Source: Holosporales bacterium
GTDB lineage: Bacteria > Pseudomonadota > Alphaproteobacteria > JAJTHO01
Length of the DNA stretch: 64,000 nucleotides
Direction: 5' to 3'
Assembly (NCBI GenBank): GCA_046318675.1
Contig: JBKCUA010000013.1
Span: 109,042-173,041, forward strand
The notes beneath the pieces are model-generated. The model ran no database searches. It saw nothing but the letters and a program-made list of their open reading frames with translations, and was not told the origin of the DNA. Shown one piece after another: positions 26,042-63,988 of this stretch (the first letter of the stretch is position 1; each line of letters opens with the position of its first letter). A program made the position numbers and the translations under genes.

Positions 26042-26200
26042 AAAGACTTTTTCGATCTTCCATTATAGCGCGCTGCGGAATTAACAGTAGACTTTAAAAA
26101 TTCTTCAGCGCGCTATAAGTTATTTTTGTTCGTCCATTCGGACGCGGCACTTTGTGCCGTGCGCTGGTTGCAAGTATACTTTTTTAATTATGCAACCAGC
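26042..26200. repeat. structured intergenic repeat, copy A (multi-hairpin, ~140 bp)
   Basis: Near-identical to 42193..42333 (about 135 bp aligned, 2 substitutions plus a 2-nt indel in a T-run); contains perfect 12-bp IR TATAGCGCGCTG/CAGCGCGCTATA plus CGTCC/GGACG, CGGCAC/GTGCCG and GCTGGTTGC/GCAACCAGC hairpins. Confidence 0.8.
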
Positions 26201-42192: not shown

Positions 42193-42333
42193 AAAGACTT
42201 ATAGCGCGTTGCGGAATTAACAGTAGACTTTAAAAATTCTTCAGCGCGCTATAAGTTATTTTTGTTCGTCCATTCGGACGCGGCACTTTGTGCCGTGCGC
42301 TGGTTGCAAGTATACTTTTAATTATGAAACCAG
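42193..42333. repeat. structured intergenic repeat, copy B
   Basis: Near-identical to 26042..26200. Confidence 0.8.
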
Positions 42334-50115: not shown

Positions 50116-50175
50116 AATGTTGGATGTAAAAGTCAATGGTTGATAAATTGTAAACAACAAGCAAAATGTGTACCT

Positions 50176-51096
50176 ATGATAATCATTCTTTTACAGCGTA
50201 TAGCACCCTTATATGTTTATGTTTTATTAGGATTTTTTGCTGGTCGTTTTTTAAAAATAGACAGACAACAAATGGCGCGTTTGGTTATTTATCTGATTGC
50301 ACCGTTGATGTTTTTAGGTTCGGTGAGTATTGCCCCATTAGATATCCGTTATTTGTTATTACCCGTTATTACTTTTGTTTTGGCAATATTTATGAGTGGG
50401 TTAATGTTTTTGTTGGTTGGAAGATTTTATCCGGATGCGCGGCGTTATCTTATTGCTTCAATATCTGGTACTGGAAATACGGGATATTTTGGTGTGCCAG
50501 TCTTTTTGACCTTGGCTGGATCAGAGGCATTGGGTGTGTATATGCTGGCAATGTTGGGGATGACTTTTTTTGAGGCTAGTATAGGTTATTACCTTATCGC
50601 GAGGGGTAACTATTCCGTGCGAGATAGCATGAAGCGGTTGTTAATGCTGCCAACACTTTATGCGGTTGGGTTGGGATTATTGGTTAAGGTGAGTGGCGTG
50701 GCTATTCCTACTTGGATGTTGACGGGTCTTGAGCAAGTACGCGGGGCTTATGTGGTTCTTGGCATGATGTTGGTGGGTGTGGGATTATCAATGGTGCGAC
50801 GACTTCAATTTGATATTGCTTTTAATTTCATCTTGCTATTGATGCGATTTGTTTTTTGGCCAATTTTAGTGATGGGAGTATTAGCTTTAGATTATGTATT
50901 TTTAGGATTTTTTGATTCATTAGCACGCACAGCTCTATGGGTGCTGGCTATTGTACCTTTGGCTGCTAATACTGTTGCGTTTGCAAGTGAAATGAATCTT
51001 CATCCGGAAAAAACAGCTACGGCAGTTGCAATTAGTACCGTGTTGGCAATATTTACCGTTCCACTCGTTGCACAGACATTGTTTCTCTTTTTTTGA
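50176..51096 (+). CDS. AEC-family (auxin efflux carrier-like) transporter
   Basis: about 306-aa polytopic membrane protein with two-fold repeat topology typical of the AEC family; ORF begins 50140. Confidence 0.65.
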   Translation: MIIILLQRIAPLYVYVLLGFFAGRFLKIDRQQMARLVIYLIAPLMFLGSVSIAPLDIRYLLLPVITFVLAIFMSGLMFLLVGRFYPDARRYLIASISGTGNTGYFGVPVFLTLAGSEALGVYMLAMLGMTFFEASIGYYLIARGNYSVRDSMKRLLMLPTLYAVGLGLLVKVSGVAIPTWMLTGLEQVRGAYVVLGMMLVGVGLSMVRRLQFDIAFNFILLLMRFVFWPILVMGVLALDYVFLGFFDSLARTALWVLAIVPLAANTVAFASEMNLHPEKTATAVAISTVLAIFTVPLVAQTLFLFF

Positions 51097-51574
51097 TGGG
51101 ATCAGATACTGAAATTTTTTCACCCCAAGATTCTATAAGTTTTTTTTGTAACCCTACGTTATATTTTATGCCACTTTGGTGATGCCAAATAAGTATAGTT
51201 CTAATAATTTGTGGAGTAACGATGATAATACCCCATCCAACGCCCGCAGCACTAAGAATTCCAAGCCACTCTCTTGCATCGTTGAGAATTTCAAATCCAG
51301 CGGCGAGACTCCACCCTAAAGGAAGAACCCTAATAAGGGTTGGAGCAATGCCAGCAGCATTCATTATAATGACAGATAAGGCTATACGTTTATTGGGATT
51401 TTTATCCCATGACCATGCTACTAGTCCAGGAAGCATACCTATTGTACAAAGAAGAACTCCGGATAAAGAAATTAAAGACATACAAAGAACAATAAGTCCG
51501 TAAAGAAATTTCACTTTTCCAGTCCAAGATTTTTTTAAATTTGGCGCTCTATTGGGGTTATTTTTTATTTTCAT
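51053..51574 (-). CDS. hypothetical 4-TM membrane protein (T4SS-cluster associated)
   Basis: 173 aa, four predicted TM helices; no recognised family; last gene in the minus-strand T4SS transcript direction. Confidence 0.4.
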   Translation of the reverse strand: MKIKNNPNRAPNLKKSWTGKVKFLYGLIVLCMSLISLSGVLLCTIGMLPGLVAWSWDKNPNKRIALSVIIMNAAGIAPTLIRVLPLGWSLAAGFEILNDAREWLGILSAAGVGWGIIIVTPQIIRTILIWHHQSGIKYNVGLQKKLIESWGEKISVSDPIKKRETMSVQRVER

Positions 51575-51578
51575 GAAA

Positions 51579-53621
51579 TCACATCCTTAATAGGAAAAAA
51601 CAAATAGCAGAAAATAGAGCAATAATTGGAGAAACAACGGCGGTTTTCTTAGCCACAAGGGAATTTATATCTTGTAAGGCATACCGATGAAGGTTTATTT
51701 TTTTATCGATTCTCAAGTATTCGTTGCGTGCATTTTTGAATTCAATGGAATCTTTTTGTCGTTCTTGAGGGCTGTCAATAATATCTAAAATTTTTAAGAA
51801 AGAGCCACTTTGTGCAGCTTGGTCAAGATTTTTAGTAATCTGTGCGCGACGTGGTTCACTATTAAAATGATCAAGATTCTGTTGCAAGGTTTTACTAAAC
51901 CATGTTGTTATTTTTGGAAAAGATTTATTTCCGTTTTTTTGATTTATTGAATGGAAAATACGAAGTAATGCAATATGTGGTATCCAAGGTTGGCTCTTAT
52001 CATTTAATTGACGAAAATATTCTTCTTTTAAAAACTTACAGCGGCTGGCAATAAATGCAGTAATATGTCTATCAATAATAGGATTTTTATAATTTAGATC
52101 AGTATATTTATTTAGCATTGCCTCAAGAGCTGGAAGAATATCTATAGATTCAAGGACTATAGTGTCCTCAAGAATAGAACTTAAACAAGCAGCTTGCGGA
52201 TTAAGCTCATAAAAACATCGCTCAAATCCATAACCAAGTCCTTGGTTCATTATAACAGTTTTGAGAAGTTCTAAAATTTTATCAAGGCGATTTTGTTCTT
52301 CGGAAATAGAACTTTGAGCACGTAACCAAGAAGATGCAAGACCATGTCGGATAATGTCTGTACAAAATTGTCGTTTCTGGTTATCAAAAAGTCCGGCAAG
52401 AAATAGACCCCCAAGCCCATTAATATCAATGGCAACACCTTGATAAAACAAGGGTGCTTCAGGGCATAGAGCAATCAGGGCTTTCGCACTGGTAACGCTT
52501 GGGGGTTGGGTTGCTCGTGTGGCAACGGCAAATATTTCATGCAATGAATTGGCTACATCTTCTGCTTCAAGACTTCGTCGAAGCCATATGTTCATTTTAT
52601 TATCTTGTAGAATTTTTAATGCACTATCCTTGGTTTTTCCTAGTGCATAAACAAGTGATGGAATATTGATATAGTTTATATTATTAAATATTAATGCCCG
52701 ACCAGCTTTTTTCGGAAATGTGGGCACTTTTGGCGATATGCTTTGTCCACCTAACCATTGGGATACTTGATCGATTGTCCATCGGTTTTCTGGATTATCA
52801 TGTAAGGTGCCTTTAAGAAAATCCATCATTTCTTTAGAAAATCGTTTATCGCCGATAAAAGTAGCTAAAGTACCGTTCGTTGTTTTTTTAAAAAGAAGAT
52901 TATCCAGCGTAAGATTTTGTGCGGGATTTTCTCCTTCCAAAAGATGCAAACTAAGTATTCCAAGATTATAAATATCTTCTTGAAATCCGTTGGTACTTTT
53001 TTTATTGGCAGGATCAATAAGCATCATTTCAAGGGGTTCAACGGTAAACGGTATTCTCCAACCAAGATGACCCATGAAGCATTCACCTAAAACAATCGAT
53101 GTTTTTGTATGATCAGAATAAAATATATTACTTGGAGATAAAAATCTGTAAGATAATGAGTTTTTTTGTAATTCGGCAAGTGTATTAATAATCGGACGAA
53201 TAAAAATTTCACGAACATTGAGTTCTGTCCACGGGGTTATTTTTTGTTTGCCGCCCTCAGGAAAGACAGAAGATCCAGGTAAGGGCGCAACAGCGAATAA
53301 AAGACTACCAAAACCAGCACCCAGTGTTTTTTTTTCATAGGCTTCAGGACAAAGAATCGTTGCGTTTGACGTTTTTTTTAGTAGTTCGAGCATATCATAG
53401 CGCGGTGACATCATTTTATCGGCCATGAAAGCAACCATTAAACGTTCTTCATTTAGTAAATCTGTTGCTTTAAAAGCAAAAACCTGACCAAGCGAAAGAT
53501 CATGCATACATTCATGAATAATATCGCCCATATGGACAATGTAACGCTCGCTCAGAATAATTTGGCTTTTTTTACGGCCATCGGTGCCGTCCTGAGGCTG
53601 CGGTTCTTTAATTAAAGTCAC
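51579..53621 (-). CDS. membrane-anchored protein with degenerate Hanks-type protein-kinase-like (pseudokinase) domain
   Basis: 680 aa; Gly-rich-loop-like LGAGFGSLLFAV, degenerate catalytic loop YRFLSPSNIF (cf. HRDLKPSNIL; catalytic Asp and Lys absent), subdomain IX-like DIYNLGILSLHLLEGENP, subdomain XI-like LHDNPENRWTIDQV; C-terminal TM helix. Confidence 0.5.
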   Translation of the reverse strand: MTLIKEPQPQDGTDGRKKSQIILSERYIVHMGDIIHECMHDLSLGQVFAFKATDLLNEERLMVAFMADKMMSPRYDMLELLKKTSNATILCPEAYEKKTLGAGFGSLLFAVAPLPGSSVFPEGGKQKITPWTELNVREIFIRPIINTLAELQKNSLSYRFLSPSNIFYSDHTKTSIVLGECFMGHLGWRIPFTVEPLEMMLIDPANKKSTNGFQEDIYNLGILSLHLLEGENPAQNLTLDNLLFKKTTNGTLATFIGDKRFSKEMMDFLKGTLHDNPENRWTIDQVSQWLGGQSISPKVPTFPKKAGRALIFNNINYINIPSLVYALGKTKDSALKILQDNKMNIWLRRSLEAEDVANSLHEIFAVATRATQPPSVTSAKALIALCPEAPLFYQGVAIDINGLGGLFLAGLFDNQKRQFCTDIIRHGLASSWLRAQSSISEEQNRLDKILELLKTVIMNQGLGYGFERCFYELNPQAACLSSILEDTIVLESIDILPALEAMLNKYTDLNYKNPIIDRHITAFIASRCKFLKEEYFRQLNDKSQPWIPHIALLRIFHSINQKNGNKSFPKITTWFSKTLQQNLDHFNSEPRRAQITKNLDQAAQSGSFLKILDIIDSPQERQKDSIEFKNARNEYLRIDKKINLHRYALQDINSLVAKKTAVVSPIIALFSAICFFLLRM

Positions 53622-53706
53622 GCCTATATTTACCTTGTTGGAATAAAATGGAATCCAAAGATAAAGATAGTATAGAAGTACTAATGTTTCGTAATCGCTT
53701 CGATTT

Positions 53707-55755
53707 TTAAGATGAAGCTAGTTCTAAACTAGCTTTCATGGCTTTTTTAAGCCTTTCTTGCTCTTGTTCGGCAAGGTACTCTGTTTTTCGCCGTTCCATC
53801 ATAAAAGCAGGCATAGGGGGAGCGGCTTTATATTTACCGCCTTTGCTTGGATCCACAAGGGTTTTGAGGACGGGATGTTTGTAATATGCTGGGGTATCAC
53901 ACAAAATAGGCCGAGAAAGATACCCTTGAAAAAGGACATAATGCTTTCCTTTGGGAATGGTCATAAAATCTTCGGGGCGGAGCAAGGGTTGTCCCTGCAG
54001 GCTACGCTGAACGTTGGCGGCAAACGGGTTTGTCTCTCGGCTTACCCCCATGGTGCGGGAACGAGAGGCCGTTTCCACGGTGCGTTGACCCACCATTTCT
54101 GAAAAGCGTTTCGCAGTAGTCTCATTGTTCTGGGCAAGAACAACCTTGGCGGCAGTGGTGGAAATAACCGTTTCTACCTCGTCCTTGCCGTACACGGCGG
54201 TAATCTGCCCTAAATCTTGGCCAATCATCAAAAAGCTTACTTTTTGACCCCGACCAACAGCGGGTCCATCAATCAATGCGCGCAGTTTGGGCATTTGTGG
54301 AAATTCATCAAGAACGAACAATGCAGCAAAAGGACCAACCTTGCGACCATCAGCAGTGGATGACTTTGGTGGGTGGGCAACTAGCCAGGCGGAGAGAGCT
54401 TCGACCAGCAGCCCAGTGATAACGCCCAGAGCTTTGGCATCTTGCTGGGTTACGCAGACATAGATGCTCATGGGTTTATATTCCCCAGTTACCGGATCGC
54501 GCATCCCTCGTACGTCCATGAAGGAAAAATCGCTTTGACTGGTACGATCGCGGACAGCTTTATTTTTAAACACAACAAGACCCCCGTCCATGGTGGACAT
54601 GATAGAGCCACGTTCTTTATCGGGGGTATTGGCCAAGGCTGTAAGTTCTAAGATGGCACGATTACTATAATTACCCGCACGGCATTCTTTTACGGCATCT
54701 GTGAGCATATCCCGCATAGGATCGGCACTCATGGCTGCCATTGGATTGGTTTTGCGAAGCTGTTCAACTTTTTCTTGGGCGGAAATTTGTGCTTCTGTCA
54801 TCCAATCCAGTAGCATAGGAATGCTTGGTTCTTTGCCTTGCCAATTTAGAGGTATATTATTCCAGTTCCCTGCTTCTATTTTTGAGCATAAATAGTGAAT
54901 GAATCCGGCCAGCACGGCTCGTCCTCGTTTTGTCCAGTGGGGATCGGCACTGCCCTTTGGTTCTTCGATAAGAATATTGACCAAGCGATCAACGTACAAA
55001 TCGCGCTGTGCCCCTGGGGGAGGCATAGAAGACGGAGAAAGAGCATTCCATCGTGGATAGAAAATCCCCTTTTCTGGCTGATCAGATGCTGCCCATTCTA
55101 GCTTGAGGCAAAAGCTGTGTTGGCTGCGATAGCCACTTGTAATATCAAAAAGTTCCGGCTTAACGTCATTAATAATCATGGACACGTTATTACAGGTAAG
55201 AATAGTAGGCACGACAATAGCGACGGTTTTACCAGTTCCAGGGGGGGCAACGCACAGGACAGATAAAGTTTCGGGAAGTTTAAGGAATTTACGTTGATAT
55301 TCGCCTAGAACGACAATCCAACCTTTAAGAAGCTGCATTTTGTCAACGTCACGTTTGGTTGCCATTCGGGCATTACCAAAAGTTGTTACCAAAAAGGTGT
55401 AAGGATTGCTTAGCATAAACCCGACAAAAACCACCAAGGTACCGCCCAATGCCGTAACAATCTCAACGGGTAGAAAAATAAACCGCCAATCGTAGGGGTT
55501 TCCGTGGCGAATAGTGGTAATCCAGTTGAGATGCCATTGCCACCAAGCAATAGGATTTTTGGCCATACCAAAATATTGTTCTACTGCCATGACGACTTTT
55601 TGTGAGACACCAAACTTAATAAATGTATATGTTGCTGTAACTAAAGGCACAAAGAAAAAAAAGGCGATAACAGACCCGATAAGCACCTGAAAAAGATATA
55701 GGGTTGCCTGCTTTTGTTCGGCGTAATCTTGGCGGTTAAAGGGGCTTAGAACCAT
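53707..55755 (-). CDS. virD4: type IV secretion coupling protein VirD4/TraG
   Basis: 682 aa; N-terminal TM helices, Walker A PPGTGKTVAIVVPT, TraG/VirD4 family blocks. Confidence 0.9.
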   Translation of the reverse strand: MVLSPFNRQDYAEQKQATLYLFQVLIGSVIAFFFFVPLVTATYTFIKFGVSQKVVMAVEQYFGMAKNPIAWWQWHLNWITTIRHGNPYDWRFIFLPVEIVTALGGTLVVFVGFMLSNPYTFLVTTFGNARMATKRDVDKMQLLKGWIVVLGEYQRKFLKLPETLSVLCVAPPGTGKTVAIVVPTILTCNNVSMIINDVKPELFDITSGYRSQHSFCLKLEWAASDQPEKGIFYPRWNALSPSSMPPPGAQRDLYVDRLVNILIEEPKGSADPHWTKRGRAVLAGFIHYLCSKIEAGNWNNIPLNWQGKEPSIPMLLDWMTEAQISAQEKVEQLRKTNPMAAMSADPMRDMLTDAVKECRAGNYSNRAILELTALANTPDKERGSIMSTMDGGLVVFKNKAVRDRTSQSDFSFMDVRGMRDPVTGEYKPMSIYVCVTQQDAKALGVITGLLVEALSAWLVAHPPKSSTADGRKVGPFAALFVLDEFPQMPKLRALIDGPAVGRGQKVSFLMIGQDLGQITAVYGKDEVETVISTTAAKVVLAQNNETTAKRFSEMVGQRTVETASRSRTMGVSRETNPFAANVQRSLQGQPLLRPEDFMTIPKGKHYVLFQGYLSRPILCDTPAYYKHPVLKTLVDPSKGGKYKAAPPMPAFMMERRKTEYLAEQEQERLKKAMKASLELASS

Positions 55756-56842
55756 CTTTTTTCGCCCTTATTTTTGTCATGCTAGCAGGTTTTTGTACCA
55801 GCGTCACCCCTGATGCTTCATGGGCAACTTTTTTGACAAGATTTGGCGCATCCACAGCGGTGATGATGCGTTTTCCTGAAGATCTATCGATTTGAACAAT
55901 TCGGCCAAAGCTGCGGGCAAGAATTTCAACGGCGGCCTCGGCATCGAGTTCTGGATCAGTCTGGGTGAGGTTTTGCCAGAACGCCCGCAATGCCATTTCT
56001 GGTGAATCGGCGTGAATGGTTGCCATAAAGTTGGAATGACCAGTAGTCATTAAACGGTATATACTTTTAGCATTGGTAACCGAAACCTCTCCGCAGACAA
56101 TAACATCAGGCGTCATTCGGACAACGGTATCAAGGATATGAGTATAGCCAATCTTGTTGGCACCGGCGGTACGCGAAACAACAAAATGAACACGGTTAGG
56201 GTGAGGAACAACAACTTCTCGTGTGTCTTCCACGGTCACAATGCGTTTGTCACGCGGAATAAAATCAATAAGGGCGTTTAAAAATGTTGTTTTTCCTGTA
56301 GATGTTGCGCCGGATATTAATACAGCTTCGCCATGTTGTACGGCGGATACCAAATCTTCATAAGGAAAATCGCTGTAACGCTTTTTTTCAACGCCTCGAT
56401 GCACTAAGTCTTCTTTTGTTTTTTGTTGAGGGCGCAAATCAAAATCATCGAGGCTGAATTTTTTATTCAGATCAAAACGTCTTATACATATAGCTACCCC
56501 ATTGGTATCACCCATTTCATAGCGCACATTGGTGCCAAGCACTGCCTGAAAACGATGTCCTTGTGGTAAGGTTGCGGCAAGAATAGGAAGATCATTGAGA
56601 TCAAAAGACTGTTCTGTAATATTGGCGAGCATTCTACAAAGGGCGTGCAAACTGCGCAGATTTAATTCTGTTGCCGCAACAGGTTCCCACCCAGGCTTTC
56701 CATGTTTTTTTATCATGATTTCGCTGGGACGATTGATGGCGATTTCTTCTACTTCTCTGCTGGAATAATATTTTTCAATGGGCTGAAGTGCCCTGAGGAG
56801 AAGGGGATTATCAAGAGCGGTGCTATTGTTAAAAGTACTCAT
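55736..56842 (-). CDS. virB11: type IV secretion ATPase VirB11
   Basis: 368 aa; Walker A GATSTGKTTFLNAL and conserved His box of the VirB11/GspE-like family. Confidence 0.9.
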   Translation of the reverse strand: MSTFNNSTALDNPLLLRALQPIEKYYSSREVEEIAINRPSEIMIKKHGKPGWEPVAATELNLRSLHALCRMLANITEQSFDLNDLPILAATLPQGHRFQAVLGTNVRYEMGDTNGVAICIRRFDLNKKFSLDDFDLRPQQKTKEDLVHRGVEKKRYSDFPYEDLVSAVQHGEAVLISGATSTGKTTFLNALIDFIPRDKRIVTVEDTREVVVPHPNRVHFVVSRTAGANKIGYTHILDTVVRMTPDVIVCGEVSVTNAKSIYRLMTTGHSNFMATIHADSPEMALRAFWQNLTQTDPELDAEAAVEILARSFGRIVQIDRSSGKRIITAVDAPNLVKKVAHEASGVTLVQKPASMTKIRAKKDGSKPL

Positions 56843-56846
56843 AAGG

Positions 56847-58556
56847 CTAAGGTTTGTTTATAGTTGGATTAACATTGGGGCGGCCTGGACCATAATTATT
56901 TGCGGCGCTGCCGACTTGATTGGTGCCGCTGTTATCAACACCAAAAGCACCAGCAGGGGAGCCGCCTGTATCTAGGCCAGGCTGGCCAAGTGCACCCGCT
57001 TTCGATACTTGGCCTATAATTTCAATCAGGCGTTCAGAACCTCCAGCAATATCACCGCGTTGCAGGGCGCGAATAAGTGCTTGAGCCTGACTCACAAGAT
57101 TTCCGGCTTCACCCGCAACAGTAAGAAGCTGCGGGGTTTTGAATTCAATATCCTGTGTGGGAAGGATAACAAACCGCGTTCCGGCGGGAACAGTGATAAT
57201 GGGCTGAAGGGCAACGGTATTCTGGATAAATTCTTGGGATTTTTGTACTGCGTCAGCACTGAGCTGGCGTACCGCTTGATTTTCTCGTGTGGTTGTCTCG
57301 GAAGTGGATGTGCCAAGAACGCCCAATGCGCCTGTGGTGGTAGTCGTGGTGACTTGTGAGGGTGATGCGGCATAATTAGCCGCAACTCCAATGGCAGAAA
57401 CCAAAAGTGGTATTCCAAAGCGATCAAAAAGACGGTTATCAACATCGCCTATTAAGCCAACGCGCCCCATGGGATCAGCAGAAGGAGAGCGAACATTTAT
57501 ACCAACACCGTCAGGACGAATGATGCGATTCCAGACAACGGAAAGCCGTGACGTTCCCGCCTTGTTAGACCCGTCGTATTCACCAATGGCGCGACTGCCC
57601 GCGGGAATAAGTATGTTACGACCTTCAGCAGAATAAACGTGGTTTTCTATAATGGCAATAACACGTCCTTTGGGGATTTGTGAGCTGATGGTGTTTTCCA
57701 GAACGGCTGGAATATAGCGATCGCTGGTAATCATCCGCGTTCTGTCAATCGGGTATGTTGCCACTGTTTTACCATAACCAATATCTTTGTAGTCTGAGTC
57801 AGACATAATCCATTGATTGCGTTGTTGACCAGTAAAGGAAGGAGTGCTGCTGAGGCGACCTTGGCGACGTTCCATTTGCATACGCATGGCCTCAATTTGT
57901 TGCTGTGTTGGGCCTTCGGGTTTTTGTTGAGCAATTTCGGGGGGAATATAGGCTTCGGCACCGGAACCGGAAAGCTGTATAATAAGGCTGTCGTTCTGAC
58001 CGTTATGGGTGATGACAATACTGGCGGAAATTTTCTGATTATTAACTGGTCTGAACGTAACCTCAAGACGGCAAGCTTTTCTAGAAGGATCAAGCACAAC
58101 CCCAGATAGACAATTTCCGCCGAGGATAAATTCTGTTACGGTCTGCGGGTTAAGGGTGATATTTTTGATGGTGAGTGGCTCATCACCCTCATTTTCAAGT
58201 GTAATGTCACGAGTTTGATCGTCCCCAATGGCGTTACCACTGCCAAAATCAATATTGCCGGTAAGATTTGTTAATAAAGCCGGCTTTTTCGGAGCGTCTT
58301 GTTGTTGACTGGCGATATTAAGCAGATCCTGCACCGGGGTGGCGTCAGCTTTTTGCTCCTGTTGTAGTTGTTGGGGAGCTTGTTGTTCGCTTTTGCCACA
58401 GGCAGATAAGCCCAATACAGCTAAGAATACAATGGCTATGACTAGAAAGTTGTGAAATCCAAAAAGGGGAGCATCCTTGCTCATCATCTGTTTGCCTCGC
58501 TTTCGATACAAACAGTATGGCAAAAATTTAAAATATGTCAATAAAATTTGTGACAT
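56847..58556 (-). CDS. virB10: type IV secretion protein VirB10/TrbI
   Basis: 569 aa; N-terminal TM anchor, Q/P-rich linker, C-terminal TrbI domain (RLSVVWNRIIRPDG…GLIGDVDNRLF). Confidence 0.8.
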   Translation of the reverse strand: MSQILLTYFKFLPYCLYRKRGKQMMSKDAPLFGFHNFLVIAIVFLAVLGLSACGKSEQQAPQQLQQEQKADATPVQDLLNIASQQQDAPKKPALLTNLTGNIDFGSGNAIGDDQTRDITLENEGDEPLTIKNITLNPQTVTEFILGGNCLSGVVLDPSRKACRLEVTFRPVNNQKISASIVITHNGQNDSLIIQLSGSGAEAYIPPEIAQQKPEGPTQQQIEAMRMQMERRQGRLSSTPSFTGQQRNQWIMSDSDYKDIGYGKTVATYPIDRTRMITSDRYIPAVLENTISSQIPKGRVIAIIENHVYSAEGRNILIPAGSRAIGEYDGSNKAGTSRLSVVWNRIIRPDGVGINVRSPSADPMGRVGLIGDVDNRLFDRFGIPLLVSAIGVAANYAASPSQVTTTTTTGALGVLGTSTSETTTRENQAVRQLSADAVQKSQEFIQNTVALQPIITVPAGTRFVILPTQDIEFKTPQLLTVAGEAGNLVSQAQALIRALQRGDIAGGSERLIEIIGQVSKAGALGQPGLDTGGSPAGAFGVDNSGTNQVGSAANNYGPGRPNVNPTINKP

Positions 58557-58565
58557 AAATCACTT

Positions 58566-59924
58566 TTATGGCTGGGGTGTGGTTGAGTGTTTTTTGGGTG
58601 CAACTTTTTTCTTTGATTTTTCAGGTTTAATATCTGTTTTTGCAGGTTGTTCGAGTGGTGATTCTTGAACAACCTGGGTTGTCGGGGCAATAGAAACACC
58701 ACTGTCATCTTTTATCAATGGGGTAGAGGGAAATGGCCGTGGTGGTTTAACGTCGGTGTGTCCGATAACATTTGGAGATTCAAGGATTAAACCTAGATTG
58801 CGATCTTGGCCAATAGTCACGCCAGGTAAAAACACGGAGCGCCCACCTTCAATAACAAATGACTGGGTGGTTGAAATCAAAGGTAAAGTATCAGGCAGAC
58901 GGCAGGGTGCACTTGGCCGTTCTAGTGTTATTGCATTCATGGTTAAATTGACTCCTAGAATACCCTCTTGATTGCGTGTGGCTAATTGTAATGTTGTTGC
59001 CCCCATCGGGTTATCCAGCATTGGGCAACCTTCTGTGGCAGTATTAACGCCGGCAGAGGCTTGTATTTCCCCGCCAAGTGGAACAATAATAAGGCCATTT
59101 TCAATAATACTGTTGCCTAAACGCTGTGCTGTCAGGCGCCGAACAACATCATCGGCGGTAAATTTTCCTAACCAGGCGTCGTTTTGTTCTACAGCACCAG
59201 GTACAAGATCAGTCGGTGAGGCTGTGCTCGCATAGCTAATAAGCCGTGTACGGAAAGCCACCGTAGGTAGACGGCGTTGTTCTTGTAAGAATGATTCTAC
59301 GGCAGCTAAGCTAGATCGACTGGCGGTGAAATGTAACAGGCGTTCTTTGCTGTCAATGTTGACATTAACAGCTCCGGCGGCAGTGATGGCTTCAACAAAA
59401 GAGCGATAGGGATTGCGGGACGCGTTGTATAAGGCGGCATTACTTTTTGGATTGTCTCTTTGATAATCACTAAAGAAGCCCAAGGGAGGAAGGGGTACGG
59501 TGTAGCTGAGCGTTTGTTTTAGATAGAGGGTTTGCCCCTGGCGCAATACGAAAAAATTATTATCTTGGCCTAAAGTATTTAATGCTTCGTCAAGGGTTCC
59601 TGATAAATTAATATTTTGTAGGCCTCGATCGGAAATCCCCGTATCAATATTTAGCTGTAAATCACTGTCCGCAATTAATCCGAGCAATACATCGGATAGT
59701 AATGCTTCTGGTAAAACAATGGATTTGATAGGTCGATTGGGGAGAGGCTCACCTAATTGATCTTGATAAGCCCAGAAAAACGGCCGATTCGTGGCACTGT
59801 CTATAGCAACAGGTATTACAGGCTTAACAATAGAGGGTTCTGGCGGCGTGATTGTTGCGCATCCTGTCATGAATAAATATAAAGCTGTCACTATAATGTT
59901 TTGATTTTTTAATTTTTTTGACAT
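58566..59924 (-). CDS. T4SS-associated lipoprotein with secretin-N0/STN-like domain
   Basis: 452 aa; lipobox LFMTGC; N0/STN-like segment INLSGTLDEALNTLGQDNNFFVLRQGQTLYL; Lys/Pro-rich C-terminal tail. Confidence 0.45.
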   Translation of the reverse strand: MSKKLKNQNIIVTALYLFMTGCATITPPEPSIVKPVIPVAIDSATNRPFFWAYQDQLGEPLPNRPIKSIVLPEALLSDVLLGLIADSDLQLNIDTGISDRGLQNINLSGTLDEALNTLGQDNNFFVLRQGQTLYLKQTLSYTVPLPPLGFFSDYQRDNPKSNAALYNASRNPYRSFVEAITAAGAVNVNIDSKERLLHFTASRSSLAAVESFLQEQRRLPTVAFRTRLISYASTASPTDLVPGAVEQNDAWLGKFTADDVVRRLTAQRLGNSIIENGLIIVPLGGEIQASAGVNTATEGCPMLDNPMGATTLQLATRNQEGILGVNLTMNAITLERPSAPCRLPDTLPLISTTQSFVIEGGRSVFLPGVTIGQDRNLGLILESPNVIGHTDVKPPRPFPSTPLIKDDSGVSIAPTTQVVQESPLEQPAKTDIKPEKSKKKVAPKKHSTTPQP

Positions 59925-59951
59925 TGTTTAATCTCCTATTTTTTCAGGTAA

Positions 59952-61592
59952 TTATTTGATCCATCCTTGCTGAATAGCAGTAGGAGATGGTGGGGGTGAA
60001 TCGTAGGTGCGTGCGCCGCTGAAGGGCAGTACAGGCATAGATTGGATGGGCGGACGTTGGCCGAAACCAGTACCAGCTGTTGCGGGTACTGTGGTAACAG
60101 AGTTTTGATTATAAATGCTTTGTGGCCTAGTATAGCCCGGAGGTAGCATATGAGTGGTAGATGGCATATTGCTATATAATTGCGGGCCGCCAACGCTGGC
60201 CGGGCCAGCGATACTGATATTATTGGCTACGCCGCCGTAAGCTTGACTGTAACTGCCGGGTTGCGGGGCGGGCTGAAGTGGCACAACGGGGGCGTTTTGG
60301 TAGTTGGCGATCCCTTGTGCTGCAATAGGCCCAGCAACGGCGGGGATGGAACTGCCGCCAATGGCGCCGCCATTGCCATTGGCGAAGTTGGGCTGGCGAT
60401 TAACCCCGCCAATAGGAGCACCGCTGTATTGTGCGCCAAGCCCGGCATCGGCAACACCATCAGGGCGATTGTTGAAGAATAGGGAAGGATCATTGCTGGG
60501 TACTGGCGGTGGCATACTGCGATTGCCTTCGAAGGTTCTTGGCGCGCCGGCCTGGTAAACACAGACGACGCGATCGCCATTGCGTAAGGTGAAATTGCCA
60601 ATGGCTTCGGCAACAATGATATTGCCATTTGGCCCCATGGTTCGGGTGTTGACCATACTGTCTACACCATCAACCACGCGGAAGACGACTGGACGGCGGA
60701 CGGTATCGGCTTTTTCACCGTAATCAAAATACGTCCATAGGCCATCGGTGAACGCTCGAAGGGGGGCAATCTCTACGTCGGCTGGGGTGGGGGCGTAAAT
60801 TTTTAAATCAAAGCGCAGATTGGTGGGATCAAAAGCAATGGAGCGAACAAAATCCGGTTTGGTGGGAGCAGTGCTTCCGGTGAAGGCAGTACCGCTGGGT
60901 GTGCCGGTGAGGCCACTCATGGGTTGATTCACAAAAGGCTGTCCCGTCAAGGCATTGATAGGAGTTCCGGAGCCGGGTGCCATGGGAACGGCACCAACGC
61001 TTCCCGATGCGCCGGAATTGGCGGGGTTGGCTAGAACAAATACCGTGAAATCGGTGATATTTTTGGAGTTCCATCCCTCTGAACGCAAATAAAAGTTATA
61101 TATATTGCCCGATGCGCCAATAACGGTCATGTTGGTATCGGCTCCAGGATGGGTGGGGCGGATAGCAATCATATAATCTCTACTTAGTTTTTGGGCTTCG
61201 AAAACGGTTCTGTCCCCCAGAATAACCTCTGAAATGCTCTCCCATTGCGGTAATTCAATGGTAGTTTGCATAAATTCCCGCGTTCTGATCGCCATGACGT
61301 AGTCAGGCCGCCAGACGTAGCGAACGATGCCGGGGGAAATTTGGCCACTACTGGGGGCTGGGTTGTTCCAGCTTTGTTGAATTGCTCCCAGCGGTGTTAA
61401 ATCCCGAATCATTTGGGGATAGTTGCCTTGGGACTGTTGTTGCATATCTTGTTGTGTTTGTTGAATAAAGTCAGGCTGCCCTGTGTCTGTTGGTGCCACA
61501 TTCGGATTGCCTAATGGTGGTGCAAGACCAATCTGCGCCCATGCGGGAACAGCTAAAAATAGGCTAACTATTAAGGGTAGAAACCCCTTCAT
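59952..61592 (-). CDS. virB9: type IV secretion protein VirB9 (CagX/TrbG-like) with long low-complexity C-terminal extension
   Basis: 546 aa; signal peptide; VirB9 blocks (YVWRPDY…, RPTHPGADTNMTVIGASGNIYNFYLRS); about 240-aa G/P/A/Q-rich tail. Confidence 0.8.
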   Translation of the reverse strand: MKGFLPLIVSLFLAVPAWAQIGLAPPLGNPNVAPTDTGQPDFIQQTQQDMQQQSQGNYPQMIRDLTPLGAIQQSWNNPAPSSGQISPGIVRYVWRPDYVMAIRTREFMQTTIELPQWESISEVILGDRTVFEAQKLSRDYMIAIRPTHPGADTNMTVIGASGNIYNFYLRSEGWNSKNITDFTVFVLANPANSGASGSVGAVPMAPGSGTPINALTGQPFVNQPMSGLTGTPSGTAFTGSTAPTKPDFVRSIAFDPTNLRFDLKIYAPTPADVEIAPLRAFTDGLWTYFDYGEKADTVRRPVVFRVVDGVDSMVNTRTMGPNGNIIVAEAIGNFTLRNGDRVVCVYQAGAPRTFEGNRSMPPPVPSNDPSLFFNNRPDGVADAGLGAQYSGAPIGGVNRQPNFANGNGGAIGGSSIPAVAGPIAAQGIANYQNAPVVPLQPAPQPGSYSQAYGGVANNISIAGPASVGGPQLYSNMPSTTHMLPPGYTRPQSIYNQNSVTTVPATAGTGFGQRPPIQSMPVLPFSGARTYDSPPPSPTAIQQGWIK

Positions 61593-62323
61593 CGTGCTTC
61601 CATCCGTTGATAAGTAAGCACTGTAAACCCAAGAGGGTTAAGATATTGTTCACTTAAAGACACAGCCTGTTGCCTAAAGCCAAAAGTGACGCGGGAAATC
61701 CACGATTTTCGCCCTTTGACAGTGCCGCGTTTATCAATGACTGTTATCTCAAAGTACACTTCGATTACATTGGAGCTTATCCGTTGTGTTCTAAATATCT
61801 CAACATTCTGTCCAAGATTTGCATCACGAATTTTGGGATAGACATCAGCCATTTCTTTAAGAAAGGATTCAAATTCGCGTTGTGGTACGCGGGGTCTGAT
61901 GTACTGCGTCCAGCGCCGTTGTTGTTCTTGTTCATCAAAAACAAACTCCTCACGAATTTTGACGAATTCGTTGGCCATGCTTTCTATAAGAAGTTGGAAA
62001 CCACTGGCGTCCTTGCTGATGGGCTCAATGCGTACAATCTGTTGATTTTTATCGCTGAAGGTGAGTAAAAATGGTTCTACCCGCTTTAGGGGGGTGAGGA
62101 CGCTTATGGTAAAGACCAGTACAACATTGAGCAACATACTCACGGTAAAGGCCAGCGCAAACACGCGGGTGGTGAATAGCTGGCGTTTGCCTTCTAAGGC
62201 CGGAACGCTGACATCGGCGGGGTAGGCACCTATTTTATCTTCCCCTGCATAGGGGGCAGGGCGGAGCGATTCGCCAGTATTGACGCCACCAAAAGCTGCT
62301 TTGAGTTTATCGCCCAGTCCCAT
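61589..62323 (-). CDS. virB8: type IV secretion protein VirB8
   Basis: 244 aa bitopic: cytoplasmic N-terminus, one TM, periplasmic NTF2-like domain with VirB8-like pattern; position between VirB7-like and VirB9. Confidence 0.7.
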   Translation of the reverse strand: MGLGDKLKAAFGGVNTGESLRPAPYAGEDKIGAYPADVSVPALEGKRQLFTTRVFALAFTVSMLLNVVLVFTISVLTPLKRVEPFLLTFSDKNQQIVRIEPISKDASGFQLLIESMANEFVKIREEFVFDEQEQQRRWTQYIRPRVPQREFESFLKEMADVYPKIRDANLGQNVEIFRTQRISSNVIEVYFEITVIDKRGTVKGRKSWISRVTFGFRQQAVSLSEQYLNPLGFTVLTYQRMEAR

Positions 62324-62337
62324 GAATATTCCTTATT

Positions 62338-62520
62338 CTAGGTGTTGCCAACAATAACCGTTCCCCATTGCTGGGGGACTTCAAGACAGGCGCAGGGGCT
62401 TTGTTTCAAGGCATCGGGGGCGCGGCCAATGCCTACGGGTTCCGGCACTTCTTTGCTGCCAAAAATAAAACTACAGCCTCCCAAGAGGAGAGATATTAAT
62501 AGAACAAATCCAAGCCTCAT
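62338..62520 (-). CDS. small VirB7-like lipoprotein
   Basis: 60 aa; lipobox LLGGCS; immediately upstream of virB8. Confidence 0.45.
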   Translation of the reverse strand: MRLGFVLLISLLLGGCSFIFGSKEVPEPVGIGRAPDALKQSPCACLEVPQQWGTVIVGNT

Positions 62521-62575: not shown

Positions 62576-63988
62576 TTACTGATTCGTTAAAATTGTCCGA
62601 ACGTCGGTCAGGTGGCCATGAATGGCGGCGGCGGCGGCCATGATGGGGCTGACAAGATGGGTGCGCCCTCCCCTGCCTTGCCTGCCTTCAAAGTTGCGGT
62701 TGGAGGTGGAGGCACAGCGTTCCCCCGGTTCCAAGCGATCGGCGTTCATGGCCAGGCACATTGAACAGCCTGGCTCCCGCCAGTCAAACCCGGCGTCGCG
62801 GAAAATTTTGTCGAGGCCTTCGCTTTCGGCTTGTTCTTTGACCAGACCAGAGCCGGGGACGACCATGGCGCGTACGCCAGTTTTGACGTGTCGGCCTTTG
62901 GCGATGCTGGCGGCGGCGCGGAGGTCTTCGATGCGGCTATTGGTGCAACTGCCAATGAACACGGTATCAATGGCGATACTGTCCAGCGAACTGCCAGGCG
63001 TAAGACCCATATATTCCAGCGATCGGGCGACTGCTTTCTGGCGACCTGAATCGTTGAAATCCGAAGGATACGGAACCTTTCCGGTAATGGGGAGGACATC
63101 CTGCGGGCTGGTGCCCCATGTGACATGAGGAGCTAGATCCGCCGCGTTTAAGGTTACTTCCCGATCAAAGACAGCATCAGTATCGCTGTGCAAGGTTTTC
63201 CAGTAGGCGACCGCTTGATCCCATAAATCCCCCTTGGGGGCGAGGGGACGACCCTTGAGGTAGGCGAAGGTTTTTTCATCCGGGGCGATAAGACCCGCCC
63301 TAGCTCCAGCCTCAATGGCCATGTTGCAAATGGTCATCCGTTCTTCCATGGATAACCCGCGAATGGCGGAGCCGGCAAACTCCAAGACATAGCCGGTGCC
63401 GCCCGCTGTGCCGATAGTACCGATAATAGCAAGGACGATATCCTTCGCGGTGACGCCAAGACCCAAGGTTCCGTCTACCGTGATCCGCATATTCTTGGCT
63501 GGTTTTTGCAACAACGTCTGAGTGGCCAGAACGTGCTCAACCTCAGAGGTACCAATACCAAAAGCTAACGCCCCAAACGCGCCGTGGGTCGAGGTGTGGC
63601 TGTCGCCGCAGACAATAGTGGTACCGGGTAAGGTAAACCCCTGTTCCGGACCGATAACGTGGACAATGCCCTGCCGTTTATCATCCATGCCAAAACAGGT
63701 TATTCCAAACTCGGCGGCATTGTGCATCAGGGTATCCACCTGAAGCTTTGATTCTGGATCGGCAATGCCCTTGACCCGGCCCTCGGTGGGGACGTTGTGA
63801 TCGGGCACGGCCAGCGTGGCCTTGGGTGCGCGCACCTTGCGACCGGAAAGTCTCAACCCTTCAAAGGCTTGAGGGCTGGTCACTTCGTGCACCAGATGGC
63901 GATCAATGTACAGAATGGTGGTGCCGTCGTCTTGAGCATGAACAACGTGGGCGTTCCAGATTTTATCAAACAGTGTCTGTGCGGGCAT
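62576..63988 (-). CDS. leuC: 3-isopropylmalate dehydratase large subunit
   Basis: 470 aa aconitase-family; Fe-S cysteine ligands and conserved LeuC blocks. Confidence 0.9.

What the first reader, a model, noticed from the sequence alone, without database searches (positions are those of the whole stretch)
51053..62520. Partial, split rvh-like type IV secretion cluster with extra components
Nine co-directional minus-strand genes run virB7-like lipoprotein, virB8, virB9, 452-aa lipoprotein, virB10, virB11, virD4, 680-aa pseudokinase-like protein and a 4-TM protein. leuC lies directly upstream. No virB1-B6, relaxase or integrase is present. The split layout mirrors the Rickettsiales rvh system, yet the host genome looks biosynthetically complete (arg, leu, trp, aro genes, flagellar genes, ~50% GC). 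The effector-translocating T4SS therefore sits in an unusual, possibly undescribed, lineage and carries non-canonical accessory genes.
Basis: partly seen in the sequence, partly recalled or inferred. Interest (0 to 1): 0.75.

Follow-up and report, generated by a model that had tools for sequence, protein, structure and literature searches.

The report
Secretin-bearing partial type IV secretion operon
A freshwater alphaproteobacterium carries a well-conserved chromosomal operon for the outer half of a type IV secretion machine that is not Rickettsia-like, but has a cut-down pilus secretin gene between virB9 and virB10; two of the three supposed extra genes are just neighbours.

Summary
All nine genes exist at the stated coordinates. 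Seven of them form a tight operon at 53707-62520 (-): virB7-like lipoprotein, virB8, virB9, a 452-aa lipoprotein, virB10, virB11, virD4.

The 680-aa pseudokinase and the 4-TM protein are not T4SS parts. They are a conserved alphaproteobacterial gene pair, and a local inversion placed them beside virD4.

The "rvh-like" reading fails on sequence affinity, on duplications and on the GenBank host label (a MAG labelled Holosporales). "Split" remains untested. No virB1-B6 or relaxase lies within 51 kb on one side, or within 10 kb beyond leuC on a same-species contig.

The 452-aa lipoprotein is a secretin homologue of the BfpB/PilN/MshL kind that has lost about 90 residues of the pore domain. In related genomes a full secretin sits in the same slot, followed by about 9 kb of type-IV-pilus-like genes. 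Every VirB10 of this clade has a lipobox and an Ig-like domain.

All seven genes are under purifying selection.

Verdict: a real, functional, chromosomal P-type T4SS-like module. It is a new variant, and its substrate and inner-membrane partners are unknown.

The parts
62338..62520 (-). VirB7-like small lipoprotein (60 aa). Signal peptide with lipobox LLGGC|S, then the conserved motif PxPVGIGR..D.LK.SPCAC.
   Evidence: Translation and Shine-Dalgarno sequence. Homologues lie directly upstream of virB8 in L009, L012, L020, L077 and L078. The motif is shared with the small lipoprotein at the same position of a complete virB operon on an Erythrobacter plasmid (L071). dN/dS is 0.08. No Pfam or NCBIfam hit.
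61589..62323 (-). VirB8 (244 aa), with one N-terminal transmembrane helix.
   Evidence: PF04335, E 1.9e-23. The best PDB sequence matches are Bartonella VirB8 (E 4.9e-11); R. typhi RvhB8 is weaker (E 4.4e-5). Transmembrane segment 49-80.
59952..61592 (-). VirB9/CagX-family protein (546 aa). It has a signal peptide, an internal Gly/Ser/Pro-rich insert and a roughly 200-aa Pro/Gly/Gln-rich C-terminal tail.
   Evidence: PF03524, E 4.4e-27, residues 88-347. TrwF match in the PDB. 90% identical to the sister species, dN/dS 0.05.
58566..59924 (-). Secretin-derived lipoprotein (452 aa). It has a lipobox, an N0-like domain, a ring-building domain and a shortened secretin beta-domain. About 90 residues are missing relative to true secretins, and the C-terminal 55 aa are predicted disordered.
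56847..58556 (-). VirB10/TrbI-family protein. The probable true start is 58487 (546 aa). It has a lipoprotein-type signal peptide (LSAC|G), an Ig-like domain at about residues 97-199, a Pro-rich linker and a C-terminal VirB10 barrel with an antenna region.
   Evidence: PF03743, E 2e-44; PF22544 Ig-like, E 1e-5; NF012200, E 1.8e-10. PDB matches are ComB10 (E 2.9e-29) and TrwE (E 4.6e-19). The lipobox is conserved in all 11 clade VirB10s and absent from the two outgroups.
55736..56842 (-). VirB11 ATPase (368 aa).
   Evidence: TIGR02788, E 1.3e-58 (198 bits, cutoff 250); PF00437, E 8e-26. 94% identical to the sister species, dN/dS 0.03.
53707..55755 (-). VirD4 coupling protein (682 aa), with two N-terminal transmembrane segments and a Walker A motif PPGTGKT.
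   Evidence: PF02534, E 1.3e-59; PF12696; PF10412. It falls below every curated NCBIfam cutoff. Its clade is defined. dN/dS is 0.02.

Best explanation
**What the locus is.** Window 53707-62520 (-) is one operon. It encodes the envelope-spanning scaffold and the two cytoplasmic ATPases of a chromosomal, vertically maintained P-type (VirB/VirD4-like) type IV secretion machine. The host is an uncultured alphaproteobacterium that GenBank labels "Holosporales bacterium".

**The clade it belongs to.** The operon belongs to a distinct alphaproteobacterial clade. Relatives include Lake Mendota and other unnamed MAGs, and Telmatospirillum. The clade has three signatures:
- a virB10-virB11-virD4 core;
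- a VirB10 that carries a lipoprotein signal and an Ig-like domain;
- a secretin-family gene between virB9 and virB10, in the members where virB7-B9 are adjacent.

**What the 452-aa gene is.** In some relatives that secretin is full-length and is followed by a roughly 9-kb type-IVb-pilus-like block (ATPase, platform protein, pilin-like proteins). In the window lineage that block is absent, and the secretin has lost about 90 residues of its pore domain.

**Inferred mechanism.**
- VirB7, VirB9 and VirB10 form the outer-membrane core complex.
- The lipid-anchored secretin remnant oligomerises through its N0 and ring-building domains into an extra periplasmic ring on that complex. DotD and Xanthomonas VirB7-N0 do the same in other T4SSs.
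- VirB8 nucleates the inner-membrane part.
- VirB11 and VirD4 energise transfer and select substrates. The substrates are most likely proteins, because no relaxase is near.
- The inner-membrane and pilus components (virB2-B6, or a pilus-type substitute) must be encoded elsewhere.

**Not part of it.** The pseudokinase and the 4-TM gene downstream are unrelated neighbours.

**Shown:** gene identities, the secretin homology, synteny, purifying selection.
**Inferred:** ring formation, substrate class, location of the missing parts.
For: **Identities and operon structure**
-.

**Conservation and selection**
- The sister species keeps leuC-B7-B8-B9-Lp-B10-B11-D4 at 77-96% amino-acid identity.
- dN/dS is 0.02-0.10, equal to or lower than leuC, rsmB and aroB.
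- GC3 of the T4SS genes (0.54-0.58) resembles leuC (0.61).

**Clade**
- VirD4 relatives at 52-96% identity are all Alphaproteobacteria.
- The B10(Ig)-B11-D4 triad sits between housekeeping genes in L072, L073 and L074 (Telmatospirillum).
- The same seven-gene order occurs in L012; L078 shows the same order up to virB11, where the contig ends. A permuted order occurs in L020, between nuoHI and the end of the contig.

**Secretin homology**
-.

**Full secretin plus pilus-like block in the same slot**
- L079 shows it on a single contig.
- L077+L073 and L014 support it.
- All VirB parts there are orthologous to the window's (B8 8e-48, B9 7e-94, B10 1.5e-80, B11 2.6e-139).

**Lipobox VirB10**
-.

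**Pseudokinase pair is independent**
-.
Against: - No VirB4, VirB6, VirB3 or VirB2 was found. None occurs in the window or in 333 kb of clade loci. Every characterised T4SS needs VirB4, so the machine described is incomplete as seen.
- Ring formation by the 452-aa protein and its contact with VirB9/VirB10 are not shown. The AF2 model is a monomer built from only 10 sequences.
- The Pfam Secretin model does not hit the protein.
- No effector, chaperone or substrate signal was identified.
- The host label comes only from GenBank record names.
- dS values of 0.8-1.5 are near saturation, so the dN/dS ratios are approximate.
Confidence: 0.6

Rival explanations
1. It is an rvh-type system. On this reading the locus is homologous by descent or transfer to the Rickettsiales vir homolog archipelago. 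It would be the equivalent of islet C, with virB3/B4/B6 islets elsewhere, and it would translocate effectors into a eukaryotic host.
For: - The gene order B7-B8-B9-B10-B11-D4 without B1-B6 resembles islet C (PMC2653234).
- No relaxase is present.
- The host is labelled Holosporales, a group of protist symbionts (PMC11909080).
Against: - Sequence affinity is lower to the Rickettsiales-labelled locus than to a conjugative Erythrobacter plasmid. The figures are D4 28% vs 35%, B11 32% vs 36%, B9 30% vs 37%, B8 no hit vs 26%.
- RvhB8 scores 26 bits against 46 bits for Bartonella VirB8.
- virB8 and virB9 are single-copy here, whereas rvh islet C has virB9a-virB8a-virB7-virB8b-virB9b.
- The nearest relatives are Telmatospirillum and lake, soil or gut MAGs.
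- Reviews state that T4SS is not typical of Holosporales (PMC11724238, PMC11909080).
- Caveat: only one Rickettsiales-labelled locus (L065) was available for comparison.
Confidence: 0.07
2. It is a composite machine without VirB4. On this reading the VirB7-11/VirD4 parts of this clade work with a type-IV-filament engine (secretin, PilB/MshE-like ATPase, PilC-like platform, pilin-like proteins) in place of VirB2-B6. The window operon would be a reduced derivative whose pilus-type partners, if kept, are encoded elsewhere.
For: - The genes are interleaved and co-directional on the single contig L079: B8-B9-secretin-x-ATPase-platform-x-x-pilin-like proteins-B10-B11. A second GspE-like ATPase follows on the opposite strand. 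The arrangement is repeated in L014 (which adds virD4) and in L077+L073.
- No VirB2-B6 occurs in 333 kb of clade loci, including 7.8 kb upstream and 10 kb downstream of the full cluster.
- VirB10 has lost the usual cytoplasmic tail and transmembrane anchor in favour of a lipobox.
- The secretin remnant is kept under purifying selection.
Against: - Whole genomes were not searched, so VirB4 may simply be elsewhere.
- IncI plasmids such as R64 (my own knowledge) and the Rhodoferax plasmid show that a T4b pilus can sit beside a complete T4SS as a separate helper machine.
- The window itself has none of the pilus-type genes.
- A more distant gut-alphaproteobacterial relative does have VirB4 near VirD4 (L064).
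Confidence: 0.2
3. It is a decaying remnant of an integrated conjugative element or plasmid. On this reading the locus is the non-functional left-over of a full virB1-B11/relaxase system.
For: - Half of the canonical genes are missing.
- The nearest annotated plasmid relative (L071) has the full MobA-B2...B11-D4 set.
- Gene order around the locus is rearranged between strains.
Against: - All seven ORFs are intact and have dN/dS of 0.02-0.10. VirD4 and VirB11 are more conserved than leuC.
- The locus is flanked by the same housekeeping gene (leuC) in two species.
- No integrase, transposase, tRNA or repeat boundary was found.
- Composition matches the flank.
- The same reduced layout recurs in distant lineages.
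Confidence: 0.05
4. It serves interbacterial killing or DNA uptake/release rather than host-directed effector delivery. On this reading the module acts like the Xanthomonas bacteria-killing T4SS or the Helicobacter ComB competence system.
For: - VirB10's best solved relative is ComB10, and JGI names the VirB9 "ComB9".
- Relatives are free-living or gut bacteria.
- A killing role has been proposed for free-living basal Rickettsiales (PMC9352585).
Against: - The N0 domain is on a separate secretin-like protein, not fused to VirB7.
- No XVIPCD-type effector or immunity pair was looked for or seen.
- To my knowledge ComB systems lack VirD4 and VirB11, and both are present and highly conserved here.
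Confidence: 0.15

Closest known systems
Rickettsiales vir homolog (rvh) T4SS, islet C (virB9a-virB8a-virB7-virB8b-virB9b-virB10-virB11-virD4)
   Same: It is chromosomal and has no relaxase. The B7-B11/D4 genes are separated from virB2-B6, and the order B8-B9-B10-B11-D4 is shared.
   Different: - There are no duplicated virB8 or virB9 genes.
- Sequence identity to the Rickettsiales-labelled locus is only 28-38%.
- This cluster has an extra secretin-derived gene.
- VirB10 is a lipoprotein with an Ig-like domain.
- The host is not labelled Rickettsiales.
Canonical P-type T4SS (Agrobacterium VirB/VirD4, R388 Trw, and the Erythrobacter aureus plasmid cluster L071)
   Same: VirB7, B8, B9, B10, B11 and D4 homologues occur in the same order. 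The VirB7 motif and the VirB10 barrel with its antenna are shared.
   Different: - There is no virB1-B6 and no relaxase.
- All proteins fall below the curated equivalog cutoffs.
- An extra gene lies between virB9 and virB10.
- VirB10 lacks the cytoplasmic tail and transmembrane anchor.
Lipoprotein secretins of type IVb pili (BfpB of EPEC, PilN of IncI plasmid R64, MshL)
   Same: The protein has an N-terminal lipobox, N0 and ring-building domains and a secretin fold. BfpB is the top structural match. In related loci a full-length member is followed by ATPase, platform and pilin-like genes.
   Different: - The window protein has lost about 90 residues of the pore domain and gives no Pfam Secretin hit.
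- No pilus genes are adjacent.
- It is embedded in a virB operon.
N0-domain lipoproteins of T4SS outer-membrane complexes (Legionella DotD; Xanthomonas citri VirB7 XAC2622)
   Different: DotD and XAC2622 carry a single N0 domain. Here a whole three-domain secretin relative is present in addition to a short VirB7.
Helicobacter pylori ComB DNA-uptake system
   Same: ComB10 is the best solved relative of the VirB10. The layout is split.
   Different: VirB11 and VirD4 are present here, and this cluster also has the secretin-like gene.

Membership tests
rvh (Rickettsiales vir homolog) T4SS | Host belongs to Rickettsiales | tested here: not met
   The source proteins are GenBank MAG entries labelled "Holosporales bacterium". 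Relatives are labelled Alphaproteobacteria, Telmatospirillum or Rhodospirillaceae. This rests on record labels only; no phylogenomic placement was done.
rvh (Rickettsiales vir homolog) T4SS | Duplicated virB8 and virB9 in the virD4-containing islet (PMC2653234) | tested here: not met
   One VirB8 and one VirB9 in the operon; no other copy in the 64-kb window.
rvh (Rickettsiales vir homolog) T4SS | Duplicated virB4, a four- to five-fold expanded virB6, and no virB5, located elsewhere in the genome | not testable with these tools
   Only 64 kb of the genome, plus 10 kb seen on a same-species contig, could be examined.
rvh (Rickettsiales vir homolog) T4SS | Closest sequence relatives are Rickettsiales components | tested here: not met
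   Identity table: D4 28%, B11 32%, B9 30% and no B8 hit against L065, compared with 35%, 36%, 37% and 26% against an Erythrobacter plasmid. RvhB8 scores 26 bits against 46 bits for Bartonella VirB8. Only one Rickettsiales-labelled locus was available.
P-type (VirB/VirD4, MPF-T) type IV secretion system | VirB8, VirB9, VirB10, VirB11 and a VirD4-type coupling protein | tested here: met
   Pfam and NCBIfam hits.
P-type (VirB/VirD4, MPF-T) type IV secretion system | VirB4 ATPase together with VirB3, VirB6 and the VirB2 pilin | tested here: inconclusive
   Absent from the window and from 333 kb of related loci. Whole genomes were not searchable.
Conjugative element (plasmid or ICE) | Relaxase, integrase or replication genes, and element boundaries | tested here: not met
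   None among the window ORFs. There are no tRNA genes and no flanking repeats. The flanks are housekeeping genes in two species.
Secretin family (PF00263) | C-terminal secretin beta-barrel domain recognised by the family model | tested here: inconclusive
Secretin family (PF00263) | N-terminal N0 domain and ring-building domains | tested here: met
   In the AF2 model, residues about 69-232 match the N0/N1 domains of EscC, InvG, PilQ and GspD.
Xanthomonas-type bacteria-killing T4SS | VirB7 fused to a C-terminal N0 domain, and XVIPCD effectors with immunity proteins | tested here: not met
   VirB7 here is 60 aa with no N0 domain. Effectors were not searched for.
Eukaryotic-like Ser/Thr protein kinase (the 680-aa neighbour) | Catalytic HRD aspartate and DFG motif | tested here: not met
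   The window protein has YRFLSPSN and LGEC at those positions. The family consensus is HRA...N and LGEC. The Pfam score is below the cutoff. It is a pseudokinase.

The most novel reading that the evidence does not exclude
This alphaproteobacterial clade may possess a previously undescribed composite envelope machine. In it, the VirB7-VirB11/VirD4 parts of a type IV secretion system would be joined to a secretin and a type-IV-pilus-like engine, instead of VirB2-VirB6 and VirB4. The window's operon would be a streamlined derivative in which the secretin survives only as a pore-less ring protein.
Probability: 0.2. Interest if true: 0.88.

Novelty: new variant of a known kind. Interest (0 to 1): 0.6.

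Why it matters
- **Mechanistic interest.** T4SS outer-membrane complexes are thought to be built from VirB7, VirB9 and VirB10 and to be unrelated to secretins, apart from isolated N0 domains in DotD and Xanthomonas VirB7. Here a whole secretin relative is fixed inside a virB operon, VirB10 is lipid-anchored, and sister loci interleave virB genes with pilus-assembly genes. If these parts work together, that links two secretion superfamilies usually treated as separate.
- **Experimental access.** A cultured member of the clade, Telmatospirillum siberiense, makes the question testable.
- **Correction to annotation.** "Split" virB7-D4 loci in Alphaproteobacteria should not be read automatically as rvh-like or host-directed. 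T4SS is also regarded as atypical for Holosporales (PMC11724238).
- **If the parts do not work together.** The locus is simply one more chromosomal T4SS fragment in an uncultured bacterium.

Tried and rejected
**Searches that found nothing**
- Rfam and tRNA scans of the window found nothing.
- The promoter and terminator scan did not exceed the shuffled expectation and gave no clear operon boundary.
- The repeat search found no element boundaries, only an unrelated 121-nt repeat.
- The 452-aa protein gave no hit in Pfam, NCBIfam or the PDB by sequence. Only the exhaustive HMMER scan, profile-profile comparison and fold search resolved it.

**Searches that were blocked or limited**
- An exact look-up of the window's LeuC to extend the contig failed. 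A cluster mate supplied the gene list, without DNA, for the 10 kb upstream.
- The afdb50 fold library was unavailable.
- The metagenome scan returned a single locus. It was fortunately the informative one, L079.
- Finding virB4 of the same genome was not possible.

**Ideas considered and rejected**
- The pseudokinase and 4-TM genes as T4SS accessories.
- A recent horizontal island. Composition and synteny argue against it.
- A pseudogenised remnant. dN/dS argues against it.
- The kinase gene about 7 kb from virD4 in six gut-MAG loci. It proved to sit in its usual pair-rpoH-rluD context (as in L007), followed by unknown genes, so I read it as coincidental synteny.
Full report
**1. Observation**

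The ORF list shows nine co-directional minus-strand ORFs between 51053 and 62520, and leuC at 62576-63988. Pfam and NCBIfam identify five of them:
- VirB8 (PF04335, E 1.9e-23)
- VirB9/CagX (PF03524, E 4.4e-27)
- VirB10/TrbI (PF03743, E 2e-44)
- VirB11 (TIGR02788, E 1.3e-58)
- VirD4 (PF02534, E 1.3e-59)

- The 60-aa ORF starts MRLGFVLLISLLLGGC|S and follows a good ribosome-binding site.
- The 452-aa ORF has the lipobox FMTGC and no family hit.
- The 680-aa ORF matches only the C-lobe of Pkinase, below the Pfam cutoff.
- The 173-aa ORF has about four hydrophobic segments.

Gaps among the first seven genes run from -20 to +27 nt. The gap between virD4 and the 680-aa gene is 85 nt.

The rest of the window holds housekeeping and biosynthetic genes. 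These include argF, argD, trpF, dapF, purK, pyrD, hemF, aroB, glyA, ispE, mnmG, parAB, fliQ and fliR. There is no virB1-B6, relaxase, integrase or transposase.

**2. Source**

Exact-sequence look-ups show that the window is part of a 175-kb contig of a GenBank MAG labelled "Holosporales bacterium". The locus_tag prefix is ACK5O1, and VirD4 is MFN7901866.1. Near-identical contigs come from JGI and Logan assemblies. Some JGI sample numbers fall in the same range as the Lake Mendota MAGs that carry related loci. A freshwater origin is therefore an inference, not a demonstrated fact.

Two recent reviews state that Holosporales typically have type VI and type II systems. In their genome sets, T4SS components were found only in some Hepatincolaceae (PMC11909080, PMC11724238).

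**3. The pseudokinase and the 4-TM gene are neighbours, not components**

- The 680-aa protein has 37 full-length relatives.
- In a 5.5-Mb genome (L004) and in GCA_016124955.1 (L007), the gene and a roughly 165-aa membrane-protein gene follow purA. No T4SS gene lies within 10 kb.
- L007 and the gut-MAG locus L029 continue with rpoH-like and rluD-like genes.
- In the sister species, the pair lies next to Mem_trans-fliQ-fliR-aroB-rsmB, as in the window. There, however, virD4 abuts gcvH at the other end of that block (L005, L009). The window's virD4-pseudokinase adjacency therefore results from an inversion of an 8-kb block.
- Composition differs too: GC3 is 0.45-0.48 for the pair and 0.54-0.58 for the T4SS genes.
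- The family lacks the catalytic Asp and the DFG motif. The consensus is HRA...N and LGEC, and the window protein has YRF. "Pseudokinase" is therefore the right name.

**4. The seven-gene operon is conserved and under selection**

- The sister species has leuC-B7-B8-B9-Lp-B10-B11-D4 at 77-96% amino-acid identity.
- dN/dS is 0.02 for D4, 0.03 for B11, about 0.05 for B9 and B10, 0.07 for B8, 0.08 for B7 and 0.10 for the lipoprotein. For comparison it is 0.06 for leuC and 0.10-0.16 for rsmB and aroB. dS is close to saturation, so the ratios are approximate.
- This excludes a decaying remnant.

**5. It is not rvh-like by sequence or content**

- VirD4 relatives fall in this order:

| Identity to the window VirD4 | Relative |
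|---|---|
| 96% | Holosporales-labelled MAGs |
| 80% | L020 |
| 61% and 59% | Lake Mendota MAGs (L012, L013) |
| 52% | Telmatospirillum siberiense |
| 41-46% | about 45 gut alphaproteobacterial MAGs, mostly an orphan virD4 |
| 35-40% | three alphaproteobacterial megaplasmids |
| about 25% | ordinary TraG/VirD4 proteins |
| 28% | the one Rickettsiales-labelled locus, L065 |

- Four of the five shared proteins are closer to the Erythrobacter plasmid than to L065. That plasmid has a full MobA-B2-...-B11-D4 set.
- VirB8 scores higher against Bartonella VirB8 than against Rickettsia typhi RvhB8.
- rvh islet C has duplicated virB8 and virB9 (PMC2653234). This operon has one of each.
- All the proteins fall below every curated equivalog cutoff.

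**6. The 452-aa lipoprotein is a cut-down secretin**

- The word-indexed search found only two close relatives. The exhaustive HMMER scan found 14.
- The five most distant of those are genuine secretins: PF00263 at E 1.5e-19, and MshL, GspD and PilN models.
- Profile-profile comparison of the lipoprotein family with those secretins gives probability 99.85% and E 8e-31, covering residues 47-392.
- Four gaps remove about 90 residues of the pore domain. One of them removes the segment that carries the conserved G-x-P-G motif of the true secretins in the comparison set (P0168-P0172).
- An AF2 model has pLDDT 78, and above 90 for half of the residues.
- The gene sits between virB9 and virB10 in four further lineages: L009, L012, L020 and L078.
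- GenBank's 434-aa start would delete the lipobox that all homologues conserve. The 452-aa start is more likely.

**7. What occupies that slot in relatives**

- In L077, B7-B8-B9 is followed by a full 591-aa secretin, a 165-aa gene, a PilB/GspE-like ATPase, a PilC/GspF-like platform gene and two unknown genes.
- In L073, close homologues of those last four genes are followed by a Wzy-like gene, two genes with pilin-like N-termini, and then B10-B11-D4.
- A single 16.8-kb metagenome contig, L079, carries the whole series:
  - B8 (cut by the contig end)
  - B9
  - a 746-aa secretin
  - an unknown gene
  - an MshE/GspE-like ATPase with an MshEN domain
  - a platform gene
  - six unknown genes
  - B10
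  - B11
  - a second GspE-like ATPase on the opposite strand
- L014 repeats the distal part and adds virD4.
- The VirB parts of these loci are orthologous to the window's.
- The same pilus-type block, with two secretin-like genes, occurs on a Rhodoferax conjugative plasmid.
- The window operon therefore equals this architecture minus the roughly 9-kb pilus-type block, with a shortened secretin. I did not determine whether the block was lost in the window lineage or gained in the other.

**8. Other clade signatures**

- All 11 VirB10 proteins of the clade have a lipobox at the end of the N-terminal hydrophobic segment (L/V-[STAV]-[AGS]-C, followed by G or D). They also carry an Ig-like domain (ASH/HYDIN/choice-of-anchor-D type). 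The two outgroups have neither.
- The VirB10 barrel and antenna region are retained.
- The VirB7-like proteins share the motif GIG...D.LK.SPCAC.E.PQ. The same motif occurs in the small lipoprotein of the complete Erythrobacter operon.

**9. The missing half**

- No VirB2, B3, B4, B5 or B6 homologue occurs in the window, or in 333 kb of loci from this clade.
- The 10 kb beyond leuC on a same-species contig has a glycosyltransferase, an Flp pilin, glnE, purL, a PALP enzyme and a vapBC pair.
- Whole genomes could not be searched. "Split", "replaced by a pilus-type engine" and "absent" all remain open. I weight them roughly 0.6, 0.2 and 0.2.

**10. Mechanism**

- Best supported: a functional P-type T4SS-like module. 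Its core complex (VirB7, VirB9 and a lipidated VirB10) is decorated by a ring of the secretin remnant. It is powered by VirB11 and VirD4, and it probably moves proteins, since there is no relaxase.
- Shown: gene identities, homology, synteny and selection.
- Inferred: assembly of the ring, substrate class and partner genes.
- Target: nothing here indicates whether the target is a eukaryotic host, another bacterium or DNA.

**11. Verdict**

Its interpretation is only partly correct, and the most interesting element is one it listed without recognising. The finding is a new variant of a known kind. Interest is moderate to high, because of the secretin/T4SS combination and the possibility of a composite machine.

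Noticed in passing
window 51053-53621 (-): A tail-anchored pseudokinase (680 aa, no catalytic Asp, no DFG) and a roughly 165-aa four-TM protein form a gene pair that is conserved across many Alphaproteobacteria. It usually lies in the order purA-pair-rpoH-rluD. Its function is unknown.
   Followed up: partly
window 26063-26183 and 42199-42319: A 121-nt direct repeat, 99% identical, containing a 27-nt internal inverted repeat. It may be a small mobile or recombinogenic element.
   Followed up: no
window 27861-64000, compared with L002, L005, L009 and the 129.6-kb same-species contig: Gene order around the T4SS operon differs between strains and species. Upstream of leuC there is either ispE or vapBC. 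The block from gcvH to the pseudokinase is inverted in the sister species. The operon itself stays intact.
   Followed up: partly
L016-L068 (gut Alphaproteobacteria MAGs, e.g. 'Azospirillum sp. 51_20', 'Acetobacter sp. CAG:977'): About 45 species carry a VirD4 homologue (41-46% identity) with no other virB gene within 10 kb. In L029 it is preceded by four unknown genes. L064 (42% VirD4 identity; 'uncultured Alphaproteobacteria') has virB3-virB4 about 6 kb away.
   Followed up: partly
L079 1-16790; L077 7597-17272; L073 1-12037; L014 1-9833: In these loci virB7/8/9, a full secretin, PilB/PilC-like genes, pilin-like genes, virB10/11, a second GspE-like ATPase and virD4 are interleaved in one cluster, co-directional apart from the opposite-strand second GspE-like ATPase. 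I found no description of such a cluster in the searched literature.
   Followed up: partly
window 58566-59924 (-) and GenBank MFN7901869.1: The deposited annotation starts this gene 18 codons late (434 aa). That start removes the signal peptide and lipobox that all homologues conserve.
   Followed up: yes
window 56847-58556 (-): Two alternative starts exist, giving 569 or 546 aa, and gene callers disagree. The 546-aa start gives a standard lipoprotein signal peptide and matches the sister species.
   Followed up: yes
window 1-64000: GC content of 2-kb windows swings between 0.35 and 0.60 within 64 kb of apparently native chromosome. The lowest values fall around fliQ/fliR and the pseudokinase pair.
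   Followed up: no
window 50140-51096 (+) and 51053-51574 (-): The convergent Mem_trans (auxin-efflux-carrier family) gene and the 4-TM gene overlap by 44 nt at their 3' ends.
   Followed up: no
L080 (Rhodoferax ferrireducens T118 plasmid NC_007901.1, record 159-171 kb): A conjugative MOBH/MPF-T plasmid carries the same pilus-type block, with two tandem secretin-like genes (471 and 622 aa). Both are related to the window's lipoprotein family (hhalign probability 99%).
   Followed up: partly
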